NCBI GenBank assembly: GCA_946631345.1
Contig: CAMPAA010000002.1
Coordinates: 1-34,377 of the forward strand
DNA: 34,377 nt
From: an uncultured Verrucomicrobiota bacterium
GTDB taxonomy: Bacteria > Verrucomicrobiota > Kiritimatiellia > RFP12 > UBA1067
Direction: 5' to 3'
Shown here one piece after another: positions 34-34,344 of this stretch. Made by a program: the position numbers and the translations under genes. Every line of letters starts with the position of its first letter. The stretch's first letter is position 1. Under the pieces are notes generated by a model. That model saw nothing but the letters and a program-made list of their open reading frames with translations, made no database searches and was not told where the DNA came from.

Positions 34-357
34 ATGCCGGGTAGCTTTGAGCTTGATGTTGCCCGGCGTGACGGCACGCTTGGAGACGTGCTGCAGAAGA
101 TCGCCGCCGCCGCGCAGGAGACGAATCGCTGCGAACAGAAGTCCATCGTGCAGCTTGCGATGGATGCCACGGGCACCAGCAATGTCGACGACCGCAAGAC
201 GTTTTCCATGGTAATGCTGCGCAGGAGCCCTGACGACTGCCGGGAGGTGATCTACCGGTTCGACAGTGAACGGCGCGCCGGGGAGTTCGCCCGCATCAGG
301 AGTCTGCCGGCCCTGCTCACGAAACGCCTCTCCGCCCTCCCCACCCGCACCGATTAG
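34..357 (+). CDS. hypothetical protein (107 aa from the first ATG; the frame is open back to position 1, so it could be the 3' end of a longer gene)
   Basis: ORF track 34..357 with GC-rich composition like the neighbouring genes. A 6-bp GC hairpin (CCCGCC-TGA-GGCGGG, 12-26) just upstream favours an independent start. I recognise no motif. Confidence 0.5.
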   Translation: MPGSFELDVARRDGTLGDVLQKIAAAAQETNRCEQKSIVQLAMDATGTSNVDDRKTFSMVMLRRSPDDCREVIYRFDSERRAGEFARIRSLPALLTKRLSALPTRTD

Positions 358-374
358 CCATAGTTGCAGACGGC

Positions 375-444
375 GGGGAAAGGTAGCGTGACCTTTGCCC
401 AAGGGCAGACGGATTTTTGCCCGTGGGCTGACGGTCGTTTGCCC
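375..444. repeat. left copy of a ~70-bp direct repeat (DR-L), with internal TTTGCCC motifs spaced 22 bp apart
   Basis: GGGGAAAGGTAGCGTGACCTTTGCCCAAGGGCAGACGGATTTTTGCCCGTGGGCTGACGGTCGTTTGCCC recurs at 3434-3504 with one extra T. TTTGCCC starts at 394, 416 and 438. Confidence 0.95.
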
Positions 445-499
445 GGCGTCGGCGCGTTGGGGCAACGCGGCCTGCTATTTCGCTCCCGACAGCCATTTA

Positions 500-508
500 T
501 GGTATAAT
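500..508 (+). promoter_or_regulatory. extended -10 promoter element TGGTATAAT
   Basis: Exact TGnTATAAT lies 13 nt upstream of the ATG at 522. The same motif recurs upstream of four other genes in the window. Confidence 0.55.
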
Positions 509-521
509 TCACGGCGCAAGG

Positions 522-2069
522 ATGGTAGAGGGCATGACGAAGAACGAGACGAAGGAAAGGCCGGAGGCGCGGGTGGTGCTTGTCGGCACGTACAAAAAAG
601 GTCAGCTCCAGAAATGGCGCGGCTGGTACAACTACCCGATTTCGGAGAAGGACACGGAGGATGCAGCGGGAGGGCGGTCGTCCCCGGCCGCCGCAGACTA
701 TTCGCGAATCAACGAGCTTTGGCTGTTCCTCGGCACGGCGGCGCAGAAGACGTACAGGGCGGAGTTCGTGGGCGTGAAGACGCGCGAGGAGCTGATCCGC
801 GACTACGGGTATCCGGCGAAAGGCAAGGGGCACGCCGAGAGGTATCTGCTCTTCAAGACCGAGTTCAAGTACCGCCACCTAAACGACAATCCCCTCGACT
901 GCGAGAAGGTGATCGTACGCACCAAGGACTTCGCGCGCTCGCCTAAGGTCGCGAAGCAGCTCCGCGAATATCTCGCCTCGCCTGAACGCAGGGATCCCGA
1001 TCTCGCCAACATGCTACCGAGCATCGTCACCCAGCTCCCGCCCGCGAAACTCTGCGTCTGCGAAGCCGCCGTGCAGTTGACTTTTTGGGACATGCCGGAA
1101 CACAAGGACCTGAAACCATCTGTTCCGTTCCCTCCGCCTGAACATCCCAAGTTCACGTTCATCGACCTGTTCGCAGGTATAGGCGGCATTCGCCTTGGCT
1201 ATCAAGCTTGTGGTGGCAAGTGTGTGTTCTCTTCGGAATGGGACAAGGAAGCCGCAAAGACATACTACAGCAACTTTGGAGAGCAGCCTTGGGGTGACAT
1301 TCAACAGATTGATCCTAAGAATATTCCAGACTTCGATGTGCTACTAGCAGGGTTCCCTTGCCAGCCATTTTCAATCATTGGAGACAAAGAAGGTTTCTTG
1401 CATGAAACGCAAGGAACTCTTTTCTTCAACATTGAAAAAATACTGCTCGCAAAGAAGCCAAAGGCATTCATGTTGGAAAACGTGCGCAACTTAACGGCGC
1501 ATGACGGTGGACGAACATTTAAGATTATTATTTCGCATTTGCGAAACGCTGGGTACGATGTTCATTACAAAGTGCTGAATGCATTAGATTATGGTGTGCC
1601 GCAGAAACGCGAACGAATCATAATCTGTGGCTTTAATAGGCCTGTTGATTTTGAGTTTCCTCCGCCAATTCCAAGGGAGAAGCGCACAACGGTTGCTGAT
1701 ATAATTGATAGTGATGCTGAAAACGACCCGACATTAAGGGTACGTCCGGTCATTCGAGCGAGTAGACTTGAACGATTGAAAGACAAGAATTTCCCGAGAC
1801 CCTATATTTCGCATGAGAATGTTGCTGGTGCCATTACGCCGCATAATTACTCGTGCGCATTGCGAGCAGGGGCATCAGCAAATTACATTCTCATAAATGA
1901 CGAGCGTCGCCCCTCTCCTCGTGAGATGTTGCGAATTCAAGGTTTCCCAGACGAGTTCAAAATTGTGGTTAATTACGGTCAGATAAAGCATCAAACGGGT
2001 AATAGTGTCGCCGTTCCTGTAATACGTGCTGTTGCTGAACGTGTAACAGAAAAACTGAAAGAACTGTAA
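522..2069 (+). CDS. DNA (cytosine-5)-methyltransferase with an uncharacterised ~205-aa N-terminal domain (fusion protein, 515 aa)
   Basis: The C-terminal ~305 aa carry the m5C-MTase motifs: I FIDLFAGIGGIRLG, IV GFPCQPFS, VI/V FMLENVRNL, VIII QKRERIIICGF, IX REMLRIQGFPDEF and X GNSVAVPV. The N-terminal part (aa 1-205) has no motif I recognise. An alternative start is ATG 534. Confidence 0.9.
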   Translation: MVEGMTKNETKERPEARVVLVGTYKKGQLQKWRGWYNYPISEKDTEDAAGGRSSPAAADYSRINELWLFLGTAAQKTYRAEFVGVKTREELIRDYGYPAKGKGHAERYLLFKTEFKYRHLNDNPLDCEKVIVRTKDFARSPKVAKQLREYLASPERRDPDLANMLPSIVTQLPPAKLCVCEAAVQLTFWDMPEHKDLKPSVPFPPPEHPKFTFIDLFAGIGGIRLGYQACGGKCVFSSEWDKEAAKTYYSNFGEQPWGDIQQIDPKNIPDFDVLLAGFPCQPFSIIGDKEGFLHETQGTLFFNIEKILLAKKPKAFMLENVRNLTAHDGGRTFKIIISHLRNAGYDVHYKVLNALDYGVPQKRERIIICGFNRPVDFEFPPPIPREKRTTVADIIDSDAENDPTLRVRPVIRASRLERLKDKNFPRPYISHENVAGAITPHNYSCALRAGASANYILINDERRPSPREMLRIQGFPDEFKIVVNYGQIKHQTGNSVAVPVIRAVAERVTEKLKEL

Positions 2070-2085
2070 TAAGGAGAATCAGAGA

Positions 2086-2829
2086 ATGGACAAAACGTTA
2101 AATCCACGACTCAGAGGGGTAGATAAGTACAAGCCCGACTACTTGCTTGGGCAGTTCCCTGCTGGGTTTGCTATGGAACTTGGCAAGGAACTTATTTACC
2201 TATTGGCCACACGGAATCCACCGACGCTTGAAGGCCCAGACTGGGAGCAGATTTTTGCAAGGTGTGTAGGCGCTCAATGGGCACCATCGAATGTCGGACT
2301 TGATGATGTGCAGTTACATCAGATGGCATGGAGTGCCAAGACAGTAAAGAACAAAAACCCATTTACAGTCAAACACATTCGACTTATCAGTGGACGCAAT
2401 TCACTAGATTATTCTTTTGACGTTGAGAACGTTCATACCGAAGACCCTGACAAGTTGGGCGAAATGATTCTGGGGATTTGGAATGCACGCATCACAGATG
2501 TGCGAAAGAAATTTGCCACAACGCGAACCGTTGTGCTAATCAAAGGAGAGGATCTCTCAACGGTTTCCGTTTTTGAAGAGGAGGCTCTAAAGTTCCTGCC
2601 CGAAGAATATGAATGGGAGTGGAATCAAAAGGGAAATCTTGAGGGCTATCTTAAGGATACTGATGTGAAGAAGTTTACTTGGCAACCACATGGTTCTCAG
2701 TTCACCATAATAACTAAAGTGCCTGAGAATCGTTTGAAGCTGCGCATCAAGCGGCCGCCATTGTTGAATCGGGATGAGGTGTTGAAACAGCTTAAGTTTG
2801 ATCCATCTTGGATTGAAATAGTTGAGTAA
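2086..2829 (+). CDS. putative type II restriction endonuclease partner (247 aa)
   Basis: It starts 16 nt downstream of the MTase stop and has a strong AAGGAG Shine-Dalgarno at 2071-2076. It shares the AT-richer composition of the MTase core. A possible PD-(D/E)XK-like arrangement is GLDDV...WSAKTVK. The family is not recognised, so the function rests on context. Confidence 0.55.
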   Translation: MDKTLNPRLRGVDKYKPDYLLGQFPAGFAMELGKELIYLLATRNPPTLEGPDWEQIFARCVGAQWAPSNVGLDDVQLHQMAWSAKTVKNKNPFTVKHIRLISGRNSLDYSFDVENVHTEDPDKLGEMILGIWNARITDVRKKFATTRTVVLIKGEDLSTVSVFEEEALKFLPEEYEWEWNQKGNLEGYLKDTDVKKFTWQPHGSQFTIITKVPENRLKLRIKRPPLLNRDEVLKQLKFDPSWIEIVE

Positions 2830-2840
2830 TGACAACTTTT

Positions 2841-2867
2841 GAAGTCACAAAACGTGACTTCCATTTT
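2841..2867 (+). terminator. hairpin GAAGTCAC-AAAAC-GTGACTTC followed by CATTTT
   Basis: Perfect 8-bp inverted repeat (2841-2848 and 2854-2861) with a 5-nt loop, 12 nt after the nuclease stop codon, followed by a short T run. Confidence 0.5.
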
Positions 2868-2877
2868 GGGTGACAAA

Positions 2878-3384
2878 ATGACGCCACAAAATATAAGCAA
2901 AGTCCAAACCGCCGCCGATGCCGCCGCGCTGTTTCGGGAAATGCACCTGCAACGAAGTTGTCAGGTTCCCCGACGAGCGAAGGGAGGCGCATTCGCATTA
3001 GCGAATGTCGCAATAGGGTGCGCGTTGGCGAAGGGGCAGAGGGAGGAGCGGTTCTATGTGCTGCCGCTTGACGCGAACGGCGGCGTTCTCGCTGAGCCGA
3101 TCACCGTTTCGGTGGGGCATAGCGACGGCACGGTGGGGGTTGATGCCGGAGCCGTGTTCCGGGCGGCGCTGAAGGCGGGCGCGGAGGAGGTCGTCGTGGC
3201 GCACAACCATCCGGGCGGCGACCTGACGCCAAGCAAGGCCGACTTGCAGACGACGGCGAAGCTGCGCGAAGCCGCAAAGCTGCTCGGCGTGAAGCTGCTC
3301 GACCATCTGATTGTATCGTCGGATGGCAAGGGCGGCGTAAGTTTCGTTTCCCTTGCCGAAATCACCGACGGCTGGACGGAATAG
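2878..3384 (+). CDS. RadC-like JAB/MPN domain protein (168 aa, no N-terminal HhH domain)
   Basis: JAMM-type motif VVVAHNHPGGDLTPSKADLQTT, which is the HxHPxG...S..D pattern of the RadC/JAB family. The start is taken at ATG 2878, downstream of the hairpin; the ORF track allows 2839. Confidence 0.8.
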   Translation: MTPQNISKVQTAADAAALFREMHLQRSCQVPRRAKGGAFALANVAIGCALAKGQREERFYVLPLDANGGVLAEPITVSVGHSDGTVGVDAGAVFRAALKAGAEEVVVAHNHPGGDLTPSKADLQTTAKLREAAKLLGVKLLDHLIVSSDGKGGVSFVSLAEITDGWTE

Positions 3385-3401
3385 TCCATCGCAAGGGTCA
3401 G

Positions 3402-3504
3402 GTGACCTTTGGGGAAATGTAGCGTGACCTTTGGGGGAAAGGTAGCGTGACCTTTTGCCCAAGGGCAGACGGATTTTTGCCCGTGGGCTGACGGTCGTTT
3501 GCCC
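3402..3504. repeat. array of five ~22-bp phased units that contains the right copy of the direct repeat (DR-R, 3434-3504)
   Basis: GTGACCTTT starts at 3402, 3424 and 3447. TTTG(G/C)(G/C)(G/C) starts at 3408, 3430, 3454, 3476 and 3498, giving spacings of 22, 24, 22 and 22. Positions 3434-3504 match 375-444 apart from one inserted T. Confidence 0.9.
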
Positions 3505-3546
3505 ATGCCCGTTGCGGCCTTCTGCGCGGCCTTTCGCGGAAAGGGG

Positions 3547-3574
3547 TTGAAAAAAAAAATGAATATGATATCAT
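3547..3574 (+). promoter_or_regulatory. sigma-70-like promoter TTGAAA-N16-TGaTATCAT with an A10 tract in the spacer
   Basis: TTGAAA at 3547-3552, A10 at 3550-3559, and TATCAT at 3569-3574 preceded by TG at 3566-3567. It is closely similar to 28632-28660, upstream of the LamG gene. Confidence 0.5.
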
Positions 3575-3615
3575 TCGTGGTGTTTTTTAATTTTTTAAGG
3601 GGGAGAAGGTTTCCT

Positions 3616-6600
3616 GTGAAATACGGTTCTTTTCGCGCAATGGCTGCCAGCGTGTGCGTTGGCTGCATGATGACCGGTTCGCTGTTTGCCGACAGCCGCC
3701 ATTCGTATGACGAGACGGTGTCCATCGCCGACAACATTGTGTTCGGGGAGGGAACGGAGATAGATGTCGCCCCTGACGCCACTGTAACAATGCTCGGCAC
3801 CATGACGATTGACGGAGACGCCGGCGACATCGCCAAGACAGGCGACGGCACGTTCATCCTGGCCACGGCACCGGTCAACGGCACGGCGAATGGCGGGGAG
3901 GCGGCGAGCCTTTCGGTGCAGAACGGTGTGTTCGCCGCATCGACCGGCTCCGGGGTCGTGAGCACGTTCGGCGGCGGCGTGGAAGTGGGCATGATGGGGG
4001 AGCTTGAAGTCCGCAACGGGACGATGAACGCCGGCGGCCTCACGCTCGGCGGCGGCATTGTGGATGTGACCGGCGGCAGCCTAACCGCGGCATCGGCAAC
4101 CGGCGCCGCGACCATAGGGGTATCCGGCGGCGCAACACTTGCCGTCACCGGCACGTTCTCCGCCACGAGCGTCGGCACGGAGAAGGACGGCACCCGCATA
4201 GACGTGAAGGACGGCGGCGTGTTCGCGGTAAAGAACCTCACCGCCGCCTCGGACGCGGAGATCGCGCTGCACGTGGATGGCGGCACGTTCAGGTCGCTGC
4301 AACGCGTTTATAATGACGCTGTCTCCGGCAGATCGGTCTATGTCGGCGAGAAGGGAATGACCATCGATCTGACGGATTCCTATGCGTGGGGCCCGCAATG
4401 GAAAATGAACATCGCCCCCGAGCCAGGAGTGGCCGATGGCGGAATCGACATAGTGAGCACCGCCGACACATCGCCTACCTCGCCGCTGCGCGTCAGGTTC
4501 ATGTCCGATTGCGCTATGACGGTCACAGGCGGCGTGCGGATCGAAAACGTCGAGGCGATGCTGCTCGGTTCGAGCTTCCCCGTTTCGTTCACGGTCGGCG
4601 ACAACGCCAGCGTGCGTGTGGCGGTCGCGCCCGAGGTGACAGTGGACGAGTTGGCGTACGCGGGCCGCGACGGCTATCTCGTGATCGGCGTGAACGCGTC
4701 CAACGAGGCGTCAATGCTTGTCGCCAAGAAGTTCACCGCGCCAAGCGGATGTCTGCGTGTCCGGTTCTTCGGGTCGGACACGACCACCGCAAAATACCCG
4801 ACCGGCACGGCGGACATCCTGAAGATACCGGCTTCGGCGCAGCTTCCGCTGGCCAGGCTGCTGTTCGCGCAGAACAAGGGCGGCTACGAGGTGAGGTTCT
4901 CGGAGCGCGTGGAAGGAAGCTGGCGCATATTCTCGGTGCAGATGGAGGAATATGACGGCACTGCGCTCAATCCGCACACGACGGGCGACTGGATGACTGG
5001 CACGACTCCGTGGCTGCTGGGCAACACCCTCTATCCGTATGCGGGCGACGACCGCACCGTGGCGGCGACGATGCTGCTGAACCCGAAGTCCGCCCGCCGC
5101 AACTCGATGATATCCATCCCGGAGGGAACGGCCCTTGCGCTTGCCGGCGGCGCACAGCAGATGCAGGGCGGCTTCGTGAAGTTCGGCGACGGCACGCTCA
5201 CCTTCGGCGGCGACAGCGCCTATGCGTTCTGCCACAGCTTCACCAAGGATGTTCCGATCGTGAAAGGCATCACCCAGGCGTATCTGGCGGTCACCAACGA
5301 TTCAGGCACAAGCTCGCGGACGCACCAGTCGTCGCTGACTGTCGCGGCAGGCACGCTCAAGATAGGCTCCGGGCAGGACAGCCCGGTGGTTACGGTCGAT
5401 CTCGGCGAGCTCAACGTGGGCTCCGCCACGACTTCCGCCGCCGGCACCGAACGCGACGCGGCGATGGTGATGGAGAGCGGCACGCTGAGCGTGCAGACCG
5501 ACCCTCTCATCGTGGGCCGCACGCACGGCATCACGGCCACCCAGTCGCACACGCCGCTCGTGTCGTCCTTCACGCAGAATGGCGGCGTTGTGACGGTGGA
5601 GAGCGCAGGCGTGGCGATAGACGAGACGGAGATGTCCTCGATGGACGCCCGGCTTGTCGTGAACGGCGGGGCGTTCGAATGCCGCCGCGAACTGAGGCTC
5701 GGCATGACCGGCAATGACGCCGCCTCCCCGTCAACCGCAACGCTGGAGGTGAACGGCGGCACCCTTGACATCGGAGCGAAGGCCGCGGCGCGCGGAGTGG
5801 AAGGGCGGCTTCTCGCCGGCACAGACTCGTCGGAGAACCTCTCGACGGTGTTCACCGTGAACGGCGGCACCGTGACGCTCCACGCGGGCGCGCTCTTCGC
5901 CGCCAGCGGCAGCCACACAGTAAACCTCAACGAGGGAGGCACCGTCGCGCTCATGTCCGGCAGCTTCACGGCGAGCAGCGGCGCGGCGGCCTCCACGATC
6001 AACTGGAACGGTGGCGTGATGAAGTTCTGCGGAGCCAATACTTTCACCGGCTTCAAGACTGTGAACATCGGCGCGAAGGACGCGATCCTCGACCTCTCGG
6101 AGGCGGATACCGCAACCTGGTTCAACCAGGCGCTCTCGGGCGAGGGGCGGCTCGTGGTGCGCGGCAGCGGCTACCAGCGCGGCGTGCAGCTGTACGGCAG
6201 CTTCTCGGGCTGTGCGGGGCTTGTCGTCGCCGACGGCGGCAATGTGATGGTTCGTGTCAACCCGGCGGCGGGATTCCCCGTGCTGGTCAAGGACGGCGGC
6301 ACGCTAACGGCCTACTACAACCGCACATATCCGCTGCTCACTTTCGGCGAGACCGATGCGGACACGACGTCGTTCCTCGGCTATTACATCGGCGGCACGT
6401 TCTACGGCTCCACCGTTTCCGGCACTCTTGCGGTCAACGGCACGGTGAATGTAGGCGGGCGCGATGCGAGCAACGGAATGCTGGTGCTGCCGCAGGGGGA
6501 GCATACAATACTCACTGCGCCGACAGGGCAGATCGATGCCGGGAAGTTCAGGATACATCCCGAGCTTCTGGCGCGAGGCGCTGTTGCGACGCTGTCGGTG

Positions 6601-8856
6601 GAGGCGGCTTCGGCCACAAGGGATAGGCTCGTCGTCAACTGCACGGTGGATCCGTCGCATGGCGTATGGATCGCCGGGACTTCCGGCGCTTGGGAGGCGG
6701 ACGAGAACTGGAGCCTTCCTCCGCCCGGCACCTCCGACGACAGCGTGGAGTTTCCGGCGACCCTGTCCGAAGACATCACCGTGACCACGGACGGCGCGCG
6801 GGTCAGGAGCATTGCGCAGAACTCCGCACAGACCGTTTCGCTGGCGGGTCCGGTGTCGTTTGCCGCGAACTCCACCTACGACATACCCGAAGCGGACGGG
6901 ACGCTGGAGCTGTCCGGTACGGTGGCCGCCGGCTCGCCGCTCTCCTCGACGCGCACGAGCGGCGCGGGCACTCTGCGCATCACGGGCAACATCTCAGGTT
7001 CGCCTGAGATATCGTCGCAGTCGGGCCGCATCGAAGGTGTGCCGTCCGCGCTTGGCTCGGCCATGTTGAACCTCGCCAACACGACGTTGCGTTTTACGGA
7101 TAACGGCGTTTTCTCGGGCCAGGTTCTCCATGACAACGCCGATGCGACCGGCGTTGGCGTGGAGGTCGCCGAAGGCAAGGTCGCATACGTGACCGGGGCG
7201 CTCAACAACAGCAGCGCGCTGCAGAAACTCGGGCCGGGCAAAGTGGTGTTCTGCCGCACCGGCACTAAGGCGAGCGTCACGAACCTCGTCGGCAAAACGG
7301 CGAAATCGGTAGACACCGTGCCTTGGTCGCACGGCACGAACGGCGACGTGCCGAACGGGCCGCCGCTCGGCGTCTATGCCGGAACGATCGCGTTCGACGG
7401 CGACAAAAACACGAAGTACACCGTTGACGGTGCGGTGCGCGTTGGCACACACCCCGTGCTGGACGGCACAGGTGGAGCATATGATGCCGTTTTGAGCGTA
7501 TATGGCGGGACGTTGACGGTGGGAAGCCTGAGCGTGAACTGCTTCACAGGCAACAACATATACGACAGGCCCGGGGATCTCGGCCTCACGCGTAGCCCGC
7601 GCGGCATAGTGAACGTCTATGGCGGCACGCTTCGCGTGAATGGTGGGTTCATAATGGGGCTGAACCCAAAGAAAGACTGTTGCGCCCAGAGCGAACTGAA
7701 TGTGTACGGCGGCCTTTTCGAGGTGAACGGCACCGGTGCGCCTGCAAGCTTCGGGATCGGATATCGTGCCAGCGCGAACGTGGCGTCGTCGCCGGAGGAT
7801 CTGTCTTCCACGATCAACCTCTACGACGGCACCATTCGCCGCACTGCCCCTGACGAGATATCCTTTGGCGCCTATGATGACGGCTACACCTACATACCCT
7901 ACATCACTCTCAACATGCAGGGCGGACATTTCGATGCGCCGGGGAGTACCTTGAACCTGATGAGAAAGAACGCCAAGGTTCGAGTAAGCCTTTGTGGCGG
8001 CGTACTTGACATTCTTTCTTTCACGCAGGGCAAATCGATAGGCAGCAGCACCGGCTCGTCTCTGGACTTCCACTTCAGCGGCGGCACGTACCGGCCGAAT
8101 GCGGCGGAGAGCACCTTCCCGGTGAAGACGATGAGTTCATTTACGGTGGGCGAGGGTGGTGCAAAGTTCGACCTGTGCGAGGCGAACGCGCTTACGCTCA
8201 AACAGGCTCTCACGACTGCGCCTGGCGTTGCGCAGGATGGAGGCATCGAGCTGACGGCCACGGGCGCTGCGCTGCTCACGCTGGACGCGGCCAACGCATT
8301 CAATGGCCCGCTTACGGTGAACGGCGGAACCATGATGCCTTCCGCTGCGGCGTGCGCGAGCTGCGCGGCCGGCGTGGTTGTGAACGGCTCCGGCGTGTTC
8401 GACGCGAACGGCTTCGGTTTCACGTTCGGGGATCTGAAGGGCAACGGCGGCACCTACACGAACGGCACGGTCACTGTGACTGGCTCGGTGGAGCCGGGGC
8501 CGCTCGGTCTGAACGTGCAGAACCTCGTGTTCGGCGGCGGCGCTGCGCTGCGGTGCCCGATCGCCGGTGACGCGGATGCGGGGTGGTCTGCTCCGTGCCT
8601 GAAGGTCTGCGGCAGCGTTTCGGCGCAGGGCGTCGTGACGCTGAACCTTGGCGGTACGGAGTTGGCACCGCTCGAGATCGGCGCGCGCGTGAAGGTCGCG
8701 GAAGTGGCGGCGGGCGGCGCGTTCCCGTCGCTCCGCGTGATGGGCGTGTGCGAGCGGCGCGCGTCCTTCGCCCTCGTCCGTACGGTCGGCGAGAGCGGGG
8801 CTACGGAGATATGGGCGGCGGTCGTTCCGCGCGGCACCACGCTCCATCTGAGGTAG
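3616..8856 (+). CDS. giant secreted or surface repeat protein (~1746 aa) with autotransporter-associated beta-strand (PATR-like) repeats
   Basis: One continuous ORF to 8856. A GTG at 3616 lies 6 nt after AAGGGGGAGAAGG and gives a signal-peptide-like N-terminus (KYGSFRAMAASVCVGCMMTGSLFA). The protein is Gly/Thr/Ala-rich with repeated G-GTL/GGT motifs typical of beta-helical surface proteins. No C-terminal beta-barrel or sorting motif is recognisable. The start is uncertain; alternatives are 3559 and 3640. Confidence 0.85.
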   Translation: MKYGSFRAMAASVCVGCMMTGSLFADSRHSYDETVSIADNIVFGEGTEIDVAPDATVTMLGTMTIDGDAGDIAKTGDGTFILATAPVNGTANGGEAASLSVQNGVFAASTGSGVVSTFGGGVEVGMMGELEVRNGTMNAGGLTLGGGIVDVTGGSLTAASATGAATIGVSGGATLAVTGTFSATSVGTEKDGTRIDVKDGGVFAVKNLTAASDAEIALHVDGGTFRSLQRVYNDAVSGRSVYVGEKGMTIDLTDSYAWGPQWKMNIAPEPGVADGGIDIVSTADTSPTSPLRVRFMSDCAMTVTGGVRIENVEAMLLGSSFPVSFTVGDNASVRVAVAPEVTVDELAYAGRDGYLVIGVNASNEASMLVAKKFTAPSGCLRVRFFGSDTTTAKYPTGTADILKIPASAQLPLARLLFAQNKGGYEVRFSERVEGSWRIFSVQMEEYDGTALNPHTTGDWMTGTTPWLLGNTLYPYAGDDRTVAATMLLNPKSARRNSMISIPEGTALALAGGAQQMQGGFVKFGDGTLTFGGDSAYAFCHSFTKDVPIVKGITQAYLAVTNDSGTSSRTHQSSLTVAAGTLKIGSGQDSPVVTVDLGELNVGSATTSAAGTERDAAMVMESGTLSVQTDPLIVGRTHGITATQSHTPLVSSFTQNGGVVTVESAGVAIDETEMSSMDARLVVNGGAFECRRELRLGMTGNDAASPSTATLEVNGGTLDIGAKAAARGVEGRLLAGTDSSENLSTVFTVNGGTVTLHAGALFAASGSHTVNLNEGGTVALMSGSFTASSGAAASTINWNGGVMKFCGANTFTGFKTVNIGAKDAILDLSEADTATWFNQALSGEGRLVVRGSGYQRGVQLYGSFSGCAGLVVADGGNVMVRVNPAAGFPVLVKDGGTLTAYYNRTYPLLTFGETDADTTSFLGYYIGGTFYGSTVSGTLAVNGTVNVGGRDASNGMLVLPQGEHTILTAPTGQIDAGKFRIHPELLARGAVATLSVEAASATRDRLVVNCTVDPSHGVWIAGTSGAWEADENWSLPPPGTSDDSVEFPATLSEDITVTTDGARVRSIAQNSAQTVSLAGPVSFAANSTYDIPEADGTLELSGTVAAGSPLSSTRTSGAGTLRITGNISGSPEISSQSGRIEGVPSALGSAMLNLANTTLRFTDNGVFSGQVLHDNADATGVGVEVAEGKVAYVTGALNNSSALQKLGPGKVVFCRTGTKASVTNLVGKTAKSVDTVPWSHGTNGDVPNGPPLGVYAGTIAFDGDKNTKYTVDGAVRVGTHPVLDGTGGAYDAVLSVYGGTLTVGSLSVNCFTGNNIYDRPGDLGLTRSPRGIVNVYGGTLRVNGGFIMGLNPKKDCCAQSELNVYGGLFEVNGTGAPASFGIGYRASANVASSPEDLSSTINLYDGTIRRTAPDEISFGAYDDGYTYIPYITLNMQGGHFDAPGSTLNLMRKNAKVRVSLCGGVLDILSFTQGKSIGSSTGSSLDFHFSGGTYRPNAAESTFPVKTMSSFTVGEGGAKFDLCEANALTLKQALTTAPGVAQDGGIELTATGAALLTLDAANAFNGPLTVNGGTMMPSAAACASCAAGVVVNGSGVFDANGFGFTFGDLKGNGGTYTNGTVTVTGSVEPGPLGLNVQNLVFGGGAALRCPIAGDADAGWSAPCLKVCGSVSAQGVVTLNLGGTELAPLEIGARVKVAEVAAGGAFPSLRVMGVCERRASFALVRTVGESGATEIWAAVVPRGTTLHLR

Positions 8857-24295: not shown

Positions 24296-24348
24296 CAACG
24301 TCAGGGTGATGCAGCAGTTGTCTTGCCTGATCTTGCATATGCCTTTTG

Positions 24349-24378
24349 CTGAAAACATACGTGCATTTCTGGTATACT
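24349..24378 (+). promoter_or_regulatory. promoter CTGAAA-N18-TATACT with TG extension (TGGTATACT)
   Basis: TGGTATACT at 24370-24378 lies 8 nt upstream of ATG 24387. The -35 region is part of TTTTGCTGAAAA (24344-24355), a 12-mer that recurs at 28627-28638. Confidence 0.5.
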
Positions 24379-28537: not shown

Positions 28538-28631
28538 CGTCGCACAAAGTGAAGCGAACGGAATGGGGCTGCCCCAGCGAAGGTCAGATGGCATGCCTCC
28601 GGCATTTGCCTGATATTTGAAGTGTTTTTTG

Positions 28632-28660
28632 CTGAAAAAAAAAATGCTTTATAGTATCAT
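28632..28660 (+). promoter_or_regulatory. sigma-70-like promoter CTGAAA-N17-TATCAT with an A10 tract in the spacer
   Basis: A10 at 28635-28644 and TATCAT at 28655-28660. It is closely similar to 3547-3580. The downstream gene has an AAGGAG Shine-Dalgarno at 28698-28703. Confidence 0.5.
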
Positions 28661-33831: not shown

Positions 33832-34143
33832 AGCCCAGGCGCTTGCATCCGTCTTATCTGCGCACATGAGGAATCCGTTGCAGCAGGGTGCATAGACTTC
33901 GACGGTCGGAGGTGCCAATCCTGCCTCCTATGCTTGTCGACTGGTTGGACTGGGAGGGGCATATGTGTTGACGAAGGGGGCGTGGGGGTAGGCAGTGCGC
34001 AATGCAGACTTGCGCAATACATACTTGTCCCCAAGAAGTTCACCGAATCTGGAGTTTACCCATTTTTTGAGGGCGGGATTATTGTCGCAACCCTGCAAGC
34101 AAAGGCGGCGGCATTCCGGCCTTGGGGCAAATCCGTTCCGCCG

Positions 34144-34261
34144 TCTGCCGGAGAGCGTTCTGCCGTGCGGACACCCCAAGATCCGCGTGTGGACACTCCG
34201 ACCCCCGCCTGTGGACAAACGGATTCCGCCTGTGGACAAAATCGTTTCCGCGTGCGGACAG
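34144..34261 (+). repeat. array of five (plus one degenerate) same-orientation ~22-bp repeats with core CCGC(C/G)TG(T/C)GGACA(A/C); DnaA-box-like
   Basis: Core start positions are 34166 TGCGGACAC, 34188 TGTGGACAC, 34210 TGTGGACAA, 34231 TGTGGACAA and 34253 TGCGGACAG. A degenerate in-phase unit is at 34144. Spacings are 22, 22, 22, 21 and 22. TGTGGACAA is the reverse complement of TTGTCCACA. Confidence 0.85.
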
Positions 34262-34273
34262 TCATGAGTTTTG

Positions 34274-34344
34274 GCGTCAATACTCTATAGAATTGACGCA
34301 CAAACACTATAGAATTGACGCAAGAACACTGTTGAAATGACGCC
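34274..34344 (+). repeat. three 22-bp iterons (CTATAGAATTGACGCA x2 plus degenerate CTGTTGAAATGACGCC), preceded by an inverted half-site GCGTCAAT
   Basis: Units start at 34285, 34307 and 34329, exactly 22 bp apart. GCGTCAAT (34274-34281) is the reverse complement of ATTGACGC. Confidence 0.85.

What the first reader, a model, noticed from the sequence alone, without database searches (positions are those of the whole stretch)
375..3504. Near-identical ~70-bp direct repeats bracket a 3.06-kb methyltransferase / nuclease / RadC cassette
The 70-nt sequence GGGGAAAGGTAGCGTGACCTTTGCCC...GTTTGCCC at 375-444 reappears at 3434-3504 with a single extra T. The match stops abruptly on both sides. Everything between the copies is accessory-type content with its own promoter: a fusion m5C methyltransferase, a putative restriction nuclease and a RadC-like JAB protein. 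Recombination between the two copies would delete the cassette precisely. That would place gene 34-357 directly upstream of the giant surface-protein promoter. This is the signature of a site-specific or homology-mediated insertion, or of a swappable defence-island slot. No integrase, transposase or recombinase is visible, so the mobilisation mechanism is unexplained.
Basis: partly seen in the sequence, partly recalled or inferred. Interest (0 to 1): 0.72.

Follow-up and report, generated by a model that had tools for sequence, protein, structure and literature searches.

The report
Repeat-flanked restriction-modification cassette with swappable core
Two near-identical 70-base repeats do bracket a complete restriction-modification gene cassette in a gut/rumen Kiritimatiellia genome, but they are copies of a small, strain-variable tandem-repeat array, and the defence genes are mainly exchanged at points inside the cassette.

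Summary
Window 375-444 recurs at 3434-3504 (70/71 nt, one extra T), with no other copy in the window or in the public collections scanned.

- **What lies between the copies.** It is one complete member of a multi-copy three-part module confined to gut/rumen Kiritimatiellia: a conserved 206-aa N-terminal domain fused to a DNA methyltransferase, then a variable restriction gene, then RadC.
- **Where cargo is exchanged.** In about 40 related loci the low-GC methyltransferase-plus-nuclease core is swapped between the conserved N-domain and RadC arms, not at flanking repeats. Only one other locus has flanking direct repeats.
- **What the 70-mers are.** Each is part of a tandem array of 22-bp, palindrome-containing units. 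Each lies just after a stop codon and about 60 nt before an extended -10 promoter.
- **What relatives show.** Strains with the same upstream gene carry different arrays or none, followed by different restriction-modification systems (HindVP, type I, PLD nuclease).
- **Reading.** The site is a swappable defence slot. The repeat pair most likely marks whole-module insertion by recombination at an array (long-target-duplication or Campbell-type), and it could mediate precise deletion.

No empty site could be found, so this mechanism remains inferred.

The parts
34..357 (+). Upstream gene (107 aa, no known domain), the conserved left flank of the variable slot.
   Evidence: It has 18 homologues. 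In relatives it is preceded by a 22-23-bp palindromic array, and in L082 by an HTH_36/DnaD_N gene. It is followed by varying arrays and varying R-M cargo. In L073 an RNase P RNA gene lies just upstream.
375..444 (+). Left copy of the 70-nt repeat, a 3.2-unit 22-bp tandem array (U1-U2-U3-GCCC). It starts 18 nt after the stop codon at 357 and ends 59 nt before the -10 at 503.
   Evidence: In L080/L081 this exact interval is occupied by a different (GTTGAAA-type) array between conserved flanks.
450..508 (+). Promoter-proximal segment and extended -10 (TGGTATAAT, 500-508) of the module.
   Evidence: Read from the sequence. Positions 450-502 are 85% conserved in L080/L081. TGNTANAAT lies within 160 nt upstream of 16 of 51 N-domain genes, against 2.25% of background windows. 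The generic -35/-10 scan did not flag it.
522..1139 (+). N-domain, the conserved 206-aa N-terminal domain of the methyltransferase ORF. It has host-like GC (about 0.62) and is the 5' homology arm of the module family.
   Evidence: The AlphaFold model has pLDDT 78.7 and only a weak ASCH/PUA-like fold match.
1140..2069 (+). m5C DNA methyltransferase catalytic domain, the first part of the low-GC exchangeable core.
   Evidence: PF00145 E 4e-87, TIGR00675, PADLOC MTase_II. GC falls to 0.42-0.47 from about 1140. It is 83-90% aa identical in 12 loci whose N-domain is only 44-66% identical.
2086..2829 (+). Putative restriction endonuclease (247 aa, cluster C2, found in 13 loci), the second part of the low-GC core.
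   Evidence: No Pfam, NCBIfam, PADLOC or PDB hit. It sits where sister modules carry NgoFVII, EcoRII-C, NgoMIV, HpaII, EcoO109I or MTaX1 proteins. Family alignment is A6.
2841..2861 (+). Terminator-like hairpin plus T-run at the 3' edge of the low-GC core.
   Evidence: DNA homology of the core to other loci ends at 2816-2830.
2878..3384 (+). RadC-like JAB protein (168 aa) with host-like GC, the conserved 3' arm of the module family.
   Evidence: PF04002 E 6e-27. A RadC gene lies 1.7-4.7 kb downstream of the N-domain gene on the same strand in about 39 of 59 loci. Paralogous arms within one genome are 92-94% identical.
3396..3504 (+). Right array of about 5 units. Two degenerate U1-type units (3396-3433) are followed by the right copy of the 70-nt repeat (3434-3504, with the extra T).
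3547..3574 (+). Promoter of the giant surface-protein gene (TTGAAA-16-TGaTATCAT). Its -10 hexamer starts 65 nt after the right repeat.
3640..8856 (+). Giant secreted/surface protein gene (1738 aa), the right flank. It is followed by housekeeping and glycan-utilisation genes.
   Evidence: One homologue is named 'autotransporter-associated beta strand protein' by its source.

Best explanation
Shown:
- The two 70-nt sequences are two same-orientation copies of one short tandem array of 22-bp, palindrome-containing units.
- One copy lies in the spacer before, and the other in the spacer after, a complete restriction-modification module (promoter, N-domain::m5C methyltransferase, putative nuclease, RadC).
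- The module belongs to a multi-copy family specific to gut/rumen Kiritimatiellia.
- The family's cargo exchange points lie inside the module. The low-GC methyltransferase-plus-nuclease core is exchanged between the conserved N-domain and RadC genes.
- The site downstream of gene 34-357 holds different R-M systems in different strains.
- Such arrays are optional, strain-variable inserts between a stop codon and the next promoter.

Inferred:
- The whole module, with its promoter and array, entered this slot by recombination at an array without a dedicated recombinase. Either a Campbell-type crossover occurred between an array on the incoming DNA and a related array in front of the giant gene, or the insertion duplicated a long stretch of target, as described for other R-M systems. 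Either route leaves the array duplicated on both sides.
- The 70-nt identity is enough for RecA-type recombination, which would delete 3,059-3,060 bp precisely and leave gene 34-357, one array and the giant-gene promoter.
- The molecular role of the arrays is not established. Protein-binding operator is more likely than RNA element.
For: - Repeat pair.
- Unit structure and the extra U1 units in phase with the right copy. These units fit a crossover between two pre-existing arrays better than duplication of a unique target.
- Completeness of the bracketed unit: DNA homology to about 40 sister modules spans 551-576 to 3312-3363, entirely inside the repeats.
- Module family: 59 loci in Kiritimatiellia MAGs, 2-4 copies per genome, with unrelated flanking genes.
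- Internal swap points: paralogues share only the N-domain (up to 98%) and RadC (up to 94%) while carrying different cores.
- Core properties: the core is low-GC in every locus and is 83-90% aa identical where the arms are 44-66%.
- N-domain partners: it is fused to m5C, N6_N4 and D12 methyltransferases.
- A second module with flanking direct repeats in the same geometry: L054, 34 nt at 94%, E 2e-10.
- Slot polymorphism and array modularity.
- No recombinase gene in the window, and no tRNA or Rfam element in or near the repeats.
- Precedent for recombinase-less R-M insertion flanked by direct repeats longer than 30 bp: PMC2853133.
Against: - No empty site with a single array between a gene 34-357 homologue and a giant-gene homologue was found. 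The only giant-gene relative with upstream sequence (60% aa identity) has a lipocalin-like neighbour, identified only from a sequence motif, and no array.
- About 38 of 40 sister modules have no flanking direct repeat, so this is not the family's usual footprint.
- In the closest relative (L073) homology ends at window position about 335, not at the repeat edge.
- Palindromic arrays are common and dispersed in this lineage, so the two copies could pre-date the module.
- Genome-wide copy number of the 70-mer is unknown.
Confidence: 0.5

Rival explanations
1. The 70-mer is one member of a dispersed REP/BIME-like family of intergenic palindromic arrays in this genome. Two copies bracket the module only because such arrays populate the spacers of this island. 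They would have no causal link to the module's arrival.
For: - U1 is an imperfect palindrome. The 70-mer folds into two hairpins (-34.6 kcal/mol, z -3.66).
- Both copies sit just after stop codons.
- The 17-nt U1 core occurs in the opposite orientation and at another position in the related strain L080/L081.
- Other palindromic array families recur at many positions and species and often sit at contig ends. Examples are the CCCCGTGAGGGGAAG type in L007, L082, L083, L085 and L099, and GGGGACTGTCCCC in L085, L089 and L098.
- L036/L048 share REP-like hairpin repeats downstream of one module and upstream of another.
Against: - Only two copies occur in 34 kb, and they lie exactly at the two borders of the module.
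- U2/U3 units have no convincing match in 913 kb of related loci. Two 2-mismatch hits to the 16-nt U2 core, in L017 and L024, look like chance.
- Nothing matched in genome, metagenome or viral collections.
- Identity of 70/71 nt argues for a recent common origin of the two copies.
Confidence: 0.25
2. The arrays are operator or upstream-activating arrays for one DNA-binding protein that co-regulates the two adjacent transcription units (the R-M module and the giant surface-protein gene). Their identity would be maintained by selection or gene conversion rather than left over from insertion.
For: - The units contain short palindromes (TGCCC-AA-GGGCA, AAAGGT-N6-ACCTTT) spaced 22 bp apart, two helical turns.
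- Both arrays have the same orientation and nearly the same distance to an extended -10 promoter, 59 and 65 nt.
- Analogous arrays precede TGGTATAAT promoters in L014, L073 and L083.
- The array upstream of the left gene keeps its palindrome through compensating changes across strains.
Against: - No candidate binding protein was identified. The N-domain and the left-gene product stay conserved while the arrays differ completely between strains.
- Relatives L074, L086 and L087 have no array in front of the equivalent promoter.
- This reading does not by itself explain the 70/71 identity.
Confidence: 0.13
3. The repeats are attL/attR-type sites of a site-specific recombinase encoded elsewhere (for example a Xer-like system acting on the 10-6-10 U1 palindrome), which mobilises the module as an integrase-less cassette.
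For: - U1 has the architecture GGGGAAAGGT-AGCGTG-ACCTTTGCCC, two inverted arms around a 6-nt asymmetric spacer.
- The same core is inverted in a related strain.
- No recombinase gene is present locally.
Against: - Sister modules do not share any conserved flanking site.
- The repeat is much longer than a core site and is a degenerate tandem array.
- No tRNA or tmRNA target is present in the window.
- Nothing here tests recombinase binding.
Confidence: 0.05
4. The duplication is an assembly or chimera artefact.
For: Metagenomic contigs can be mis-joined at repeats.
Against: - A second, non-identical assembly (3 differences in 13.4 kb) has the same structure.
- An NCBI contig independently spans the low-GC/RadC junction (L002).
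- The N-domain...RadC order is reproduced in about 40 other loci.
Confidence: 0.02

Closest known systems
Insertion of restriction-modification gene complexes with long target duplication (Nobusato et al. 2000, as cited in Furuta, Abe & Kobayashi 2010, Nucleic Acids Res 38:2428, PMC2853133)
   Same: An R-M unit shorter than 20 kb, with no integrase or transposase, is flanked by direct repeats longer than 30 bp and differs in GC from its surroundings. Furuta et al. also list 'chance insertion between repeated sequences' as an alternative class and describe gene fusion at such insertions.
   Different: Membership requires an empty site with one copy in a related genome, and none could be found here. 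The repeat is itself a tandem array with extra in-phase units on one side, which points to recombination between two pre-existing arrays. The inserted unit belongs to a structured module family.
Allelic substitution of R-M or defence systems between conserved flanking genes. Examples are R-M 'substitution' in PMC2853133, and (from my own knowledge, not checked here) the hsd/immigration control region and the P2/P4 prophage defence hotspots.
   Same: Variable, low-GC defence cargo lies between conserved arms. The arms are kept similar within a genome while the cargo differs.
   Different: The 5' arm here is not a neighbouring gene. It is a 206-aa domain translated in frame with whatever methyltransferase follows (m5C, N6_N4 or D12). 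The 3' arm is always RadC. The whole docking unit is multi-copy and sits in unrelated genomic contexts.
REP/BIME-type bacterial interspersed mosaic elements (my own knowledge)
   Same: Short imperfect palindromes occur in extragenic spacers after stop codons, are combined in mosaic arrays, occur in either orientation and vary between strains.
   Different: High genomic copy number, the defining trait, is not shown for this 70-mer. The strict 22-bp phasing and the diversity of unit sequences between strains are not typical of REPs. No RAYT-type transposase was seen.
Type II methyltransferases with an N-terminal regulatory DNA-binding extension, such as the SsoII/EcoRII type (my own knowledge)
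   Same: An m5C methyltransferase carries an extra N-terminal region that does not belong to the catalytic domain, in an operon with its nuclease.
   Different: The N-domain is 206 aa, has no HTH signature and gives only a weak ASCH/PUA-like fold match. It is shared across three methyltransferase classes and also occurs with DUF3791 or truncated methyltransferase stubs. DNA binding is untested.

Membership tests
R-M insertion with long target duplication (criteria of PMC2853133) | Both an M gene and an R gene lie inside the inserted segment. | tested here: inconclusive
   The M gene is firm (PF00145). ORF 2086-2829 has no nuclease domain hit but occupies the position of bona fide REases in sister modules.
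R-M insertion with long target duplication (criteria of PMC2853133) | The insert is shorter than 20 kb and the direct repeat is longer than 30 bp. | tested here: met
   There are 2,989 nt between the copies, and the repeat is 70/71 nt at 98.6%.
R-M insertion with long target duplication (criteria of PMC2853133) | No mobility gene (integrase, transposase) lies in or next to the unit. | tested here: met
   No such Pfam domain was found in the large ORFs of the window. The left side is limited to 374 nt, plus 153 nt from L001.
R-M insertion with long target duplication (criteria of PMC2853133) | A related genome has an empty site with a single copy of the repeated sequence. | tested here: inconclusive
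   Twenty-seven relatives of the left gene and one of the giant gene were examined. None has the U1-U3 array in single copy with both flanks. Most contigs are too short to tell.
R-M insertion with long target duplication (criteria of PMC2853133) | The repeated sequence does not occur elsewhere in the genome. | not testable with these tools
   It is absent from the rest of the 34-kb window and from the public collections scanned. The host genome is not available.
REP/BIME-like dispersed intergenic repeats | An imperfect palindrome in an extragenic location. | tested here: met
   The hairpins have z -3.66, and both copies lie between a stop codon and the next promoter.
REP/BIME-like dispersed intergenic repeats | Tens to hundreds of copies per genome. 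| not testable with these tools
   Only two copies are seen in 34 kb. A U1 core is present, inverted, in the related strain L080/L081.
Site-specific recombination cassette (att sites, integron attC, Xer/pdif modules) | A conserved recombination site is shared at the borders of family members. | tested here: not met
   No DNA similarity was found outside 551-3363 between the window and about 40 sister modules. Flanking repeats are absent in about 38 of 40 modules.
Site-specific recombination cassette (att sites, integron attC, Xer/pdif modules) | A cognate recombinase gene or a tRNA/tmRNA target lies at the border. | tested here: not met
   No recombinase domain and no tRNA, tmRNA or Rfam hit in the window. 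An RNase P RNA gene lies upstream of the left gene in L073, outside the repeat pair.
N-domain/RadC-bracketed R-M module of Kiritimatiellia (defined here) | An N-domain fused to a DNA methyltransferase, a low-GC core and a RadC gene downstream on the same strand. | tested here: met

The most novel reading that the evidence does not exclude
The 22-bp palindromic arrays are functional docking or recombination sites, or shared operators, of an undescribed system in Kiritimatiellia. That system would move whole promoter-plus-defence cassettes between array-marked intergenic slots without a cassette-encoded recombinase. A second layer of exchange would swap methyltransferase-nuclease cores in frame behind a universal N-terminal domain and in front of RadC. 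The result would be a two-tier, integron-like shuffling system for restriction-modification genes.
Probability: 0.12. Interest if true: 0.75.

Novelty: new variant of a known kind. Interest (0 to 1): 0.5.

Why it matters
R-M systems are known to move and to replace one another, but how they do so without mobility genes is poorly understood. This locus offers a concrete case. A lineage-wide docking unit (conserved N-terminal domain, RadC) accepts methyltransferase-nuclease cores of at least three methyltransferase classes and many endonuclease families. One copy of the unit is bracketed by long direct repeats that could show how whole units enter and leave a slot. If confirmed, this would explain the rapid turnover of restriction specificities in uncultured gut and rumen Kiritimatiellia. 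It would also give a testable model for recombinase-independent cassette exchange. The strain-variable 22-bp palindromic arrays next to promoters are an uncharacterised class of intergenic element in this phylum.

Tried and rejected
- **DNA scans for the repeat.** Exact and degenerate scans of genome contigs, metagenome contigs and viral contigs found nothing. The strain is not in those sets, so copy number and empty sites could not be assessed that way.
- **Exact-protein look-ups.** Look-ups of the window's methyltransferase, nuclease and RadC returned only one other scaffold of the same strain, plus one fragment. The 107-aa left-gene product is not on record.
- **Giant-gene relatives.** None were found in genome contigs. 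Only three protein hits were found, the best at 60% identity with non-syntenic upstream DNA.
- **tRNA, tmRNA or known RNA family as an integration target or as the identity of the repeat.** None was found.
- **Intrinsic terminator.** The scan flags a weak 6-pair hairpin plus T5 inside U2, but the stronger predicted hairpins are not followed by T-runs. I rejected this as the main explanation.
- **ACCTTT-N-AAAGGT as a family-wide operator.** It occurs only in the window, L014 and one site in L032, so it is not general.
- **Identity of the N-domain.** There was no Pfam, NCBIfam, PADLOC or PDB sequence hit. The fold search gave only ASCH at E 0.03 and TM 0.28-0.38, which is too weak to assign. The domain is absent from the plasmid and phage record collections.
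- **Flanking repeats as a general property of the module family.** Tested and rejected.

Full report
**1. The observation**

Window 375-444 and 3434-3504 are the same sequence apart from one extra T in the right copy. A local alignment gives 98.6% identity over 71 columns, E 9e-33.
- Nothing comparable exists elsewhere in the window. Other direct repeats are 25-45 nt at 73-92% identity.
- Unit patterns with up to three mismatches hit only these two places, against fewer than one match expected by chance.
- A second assembly of the same strain differs from the window at 3 of 13,384 positions and has the same arrangement (ENA ERZ28612940 scaffold_4035).
- A short NCBI contig independently spans the nuclease/RadC junction.

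The repeat is therefore real and not an assembly artefact.

**2. Anatomy of the repeat**

It is a tandem array with a 22-bp period.
- The units are U1 GGGGAAAGGTAGCGTGACCTTT, U2 GCCCAAGGGCAGACGGATTTTT and U3 GCCCGTGGGCTGACGGTCGTTT, followed by GCCC.
- Each unit holds a short palindrome: AAAGGT-N6-ACCTTT in U1, TGCCC-AA-GGGCA in U2.
- The right copy is preceded by two further degenerate U1-type units at 3396-3433. The right array therefore has about five units and the left about 3.2.
- The left copy starts 18 nt after the stop codon of gene 34-357, and the right array 12 nt after the RadC stop.
- The copies end 59 and 65 nt before an extended -10 element: TGGTATAAT at 500-508, and TGaTATCAT at 3566-3574.
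- As RNA the 70-mer folds into two hairpins (-34.6 kcal/mol, z -3.66). It has no proper terminator tail and matches no Rfam family or tRNA.

**3. What lies between the copies**

- ORF 522-2069 is a fusion. Residues 1-206 form a domain with no Pfam, NCBIfam, PADLOC or PDB match. Residues 211-508 are an m5C methyltransferase.
- ORF 2086-2829 has no detectable domain.
- ORF 2878-3384 is RadC.
- GC content is about 0.60-0.69 in the flanks, the N-domain and RadC, but 0.42-0.47 from about 1140 to about 2880.

The foreign-looking block is therefore only the methyltransferase catalytic domain plus the second ORF.

**4. The module family**

The N-domain has 210 database relatives but only 266 representative clusters among 1.84 billion proteins, and it is always N-terminal.
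- A scan of species-representative genomes returned 59 loci, almost all from gut or rumen Kiritimatiellia MAGs, with 2-4 copies in several genomes.
- In about 39 of them a RadC gene follows on the same strand 1.7-4.7 kb downstream.
- Clustering all ORFs of these loci shows that only the N-domain protein and RadC are shared. The neighbouring genes are unrelated between loci.
- At least ten ORF families occupy the space between the two arms. They include bona fide type II endonucleases: NgoFVII, EcoRII-C, NgoMIV, HpaII, EcoO109I and MTaX1.
- The window's ORF 2086-2829 belongs to a family found at that position in 13 loci. This positional argument is the only support for calling it a nuclease.
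- The N-domain is fused to m5C (30 of 42), N6_N4 (7) and D12 (1) methyltransferases.
- It also occurs with DUF3791, or with about 50-aa methyltransferase stubs followed by other cargo such as ORF6N plus HNH.

**5. Where exchange happens**

- Paralogous modules in one genome share DNA homology only in the N-domain and in RadC, while their cores differ. L029/L038 are 98% identical in the N-domain and 92.5% in RadC. L042/L069 are 92% and 94%.
- Twelve loci from other genomes carry a core close to the window's. The methyltransferase is 83-90% and the second ORF 56-89% aa identical, although their N-domains are only 44-66% and their RadC 48-64% identical.
- The core is low-GC in every locus, whereas the arms follow the host GC.
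- DNA homology of the shared core ends at 2816-2830 in all these loci and starts as late as 1123-1151 in some (L059, L067).

This is the signature of core exchange by homologous recombination within conserved arms. The left crossover lies in or near the N-domain/methyltransferase linker, and the right one just after the nuclease stop. The 70-nt repeats are not these boundaries. No locus shares any similarity with the window outside 551-3363.

**6. Are flanking repeats a family trait?**

No. I compared 1 kb upstream of the N-domain gene with 1 kb downstream of RadC in about 40 loci. Only two modules have significant direct repeats:
- the window;
- L054, with 34 nt at 94% identity, E 2e-10 and abrupt ends. 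The copies lie 31 nt after the upstream stop codon and 60 nt after the RadC stop.

L065 has a 68-nt inverted pair, and L028 a low-complexity inverted pair. L054 is an independent second case with the same geometry. This keeps the idea of whole-module insertion with a long duplication alive, but it is not the rule.

**7. The slot and the arrays in relatives of gene 34-357**

Homologues of the left gene were followed into 27 contigs.
- **L073** is 97% identical to the window up to window position about 335.
  - An RNase P RNA gene lies just upstream.
  - Past position 335 it carries a different 22-bp x 7 array (TTAGGCTGAGGGT...), a TGGTATAAT promoter and a HindVP endonuclease gene.
- **L083 and L088** have a 23-27-bp GGTGTACACC array. 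In L083 it is followed by a type I HsdM gene.
- **L096/L097** have a 21-bp x 7.7 array.
- **L074** has no array and carries ORF6N plus a PLD nuclease.
- **L086 and L087** have no array.
- **L080/L081** are 86-89% identical to the window.
  - They keep both flanks of the left repeat: GATTAGCC at the stop codon, and the homologue of window 450-502.
  - Between those flanks they carry a GTTGAAA-type array.
  - They have the U1 core (17/17 nt) in inverted orientation further downstream.

Three conclusions follow. The site after gene 34-357 is a polymorphic slot for R-M systems. The arrays are optional, modular and strain-variable. At least the U1 unit exists outside the window's two copies. Similar arrays and palindromes are frequent near these modules and often lie at contig ends. 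The rest of the window is ordinary chromosome: rhamnosidase, transketolase, glutamine synthetase III, LarA, KdgT, GH2 and an AraC-type regulator, with no recombinase.

**8. Interpretation**

Shown:
- a real 70-nt direct repeat brackets a complete module;
- the module family and its internal swap points;
- the slot polymorphism;
- the modular nature of the arrays.

Inferred:
- The pair records entry of the whole module into this slot by recombination at an array. The in-phase extra U1 units on the right favour a crossover between two pre-existing related arrays (Campbell-type) over duplication of a unique target. The published class 'insertion with long target duplication' remains the nearest described phenomenon (PMC2853133).
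- Recombination between the copies would remove 3,059-3,060 bp and leave one array in front of the giant-gene promoter.

I put this at about 0.5. The rivals are:
- The arrays are dispersed REP/BIME-like elements that bracket the module by coincidence of location (0.25).
- The arrays are shared operators kept alike by selection (0.13). This reading is compatible with either of the above.
- The repeats are sites for a recombinase acting in trans (0.05).
- The duplication is an artefact (0.02).

**9. Limits**

- The host genome is unavailable, so genome-wide copy number is unknown.
- No empty site was found.
- The N-domain fold is unresolved. Its best match is ASCH at E 0.03 and TM 0.28-0.38, on a model of pLDDT 78.7.
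- The nuclease assignment is positional only.
- All context look-ups and collection scans that could reach ENA contigs are exhausted.

**10. Verdict**

The finding is best filed as a new variant of known R-M mobility: a repeat-flanked copy of a lineage-specific, arm-bracketed R-M docking module. The 22-bp arrays remain an uncharacterised element class.

Noticed in passing
window 34150-34343: Two adjacent 22-bp tandem arrays lie after the last gene of the window. One is GCSTGYGGACA-type with about 5 units. The other is CTATAGAATTGACGCAAAAACA x 2.7. Arrays of this kind therefore also mark the far end of the 30-kb chromosomal block.
   Followed up: partly
window 34049-34070; L089 161-182: A 22-nt exact match links the window's right end to the region upstream of a left-gene homologue in L089, next to GGGGACTGTCCCC palindromes. 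This hints that another copy of the same island type begins at the window's right edge.
   Followed up: no
L001 60-122 (153 nt left of the window start); L073, L081-L083, L085-L093, L099: Gene 34-357 is always preceded by 3-4 copies of a 22-23-bp unit holding a 15-bp palindrome (GTTGCACAGCGCTAC, GTCTCACAGTGAGAC, GTCCCACAGTGGGAC...). The halves of the palindrome change together between strains. In L082 an HTH_36/DnaD_N protein gene lies just upstream. The arrangement looks like an iteron or operator set with co-evolving specificity.
   Followed up: partly
L073 1244-1601: A bacterial RNase P RNA gene (Rfam RF00010, 200.7 bits) lies about 90 nt before the start of homology with the window's left flank. 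A truncated remnant of the usual upstream gene lies in between. The island may therefore abut rnpB.
   Followed up: partly
L007 vs L008, positions about 640-7120: Two otherwise identical contig families differ by a roughly 6.5-kb segment between a PBP gene and the 22-bp array. One has a 2157-aa ORF and the other a set of small minus-strand genes. This looks like a second polymorphic slot bounded by an array.
   Followed up: no
L013 8542-8812; L024 9301-9601: A MITE-like element lies upstream of two modules of one genome. Its terminal inverted repeats are GCGGAGGGGRTGTTTCGG ... CCGAAACACCCCTCCGC, about 200-240 nt apart.
   Followed up: no
P0051, P0059, P0073, P0075, P0078 (alignment A2): Several N-domain proteins end after about 50 residues of a methyltransferase with a similar tail (..WEAA, ..LEAA, ..LEVA). 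This suggests a recurrent deletion or recombination junction inside the methyltransferase gene where other cargo (ORF6N plus HNH) was brought in.
   Followed up: partly
window 24323-24367 and 28606-28650: A 45-nt motif (TTGCCTGAT...TTTTGCTGAAAA, 73% identity) recurs upstream of two glycan-related genes. It may be a shared regulatory site of the polysaccharide-utilisation cluster.
   Followed up: no
7 of the related loci (e.g. L017 9517-9759): A small Cro/C1-type HTH gene (PF13443, E 3e-20) lies 0.2-1.3 kb upstream of the N-domain gene in seven modules, where an R-M controller (C) protein would be expected. The window has no equivalent.
   Followed up: partly
L085, L089, L098: The perfect palindrome GGGGAC-N-GTCCCC occurs repeatedly, singly or at about 26-bp spacing, in intergenic DNA around left-gene homologues of several species.
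   Followed up: no
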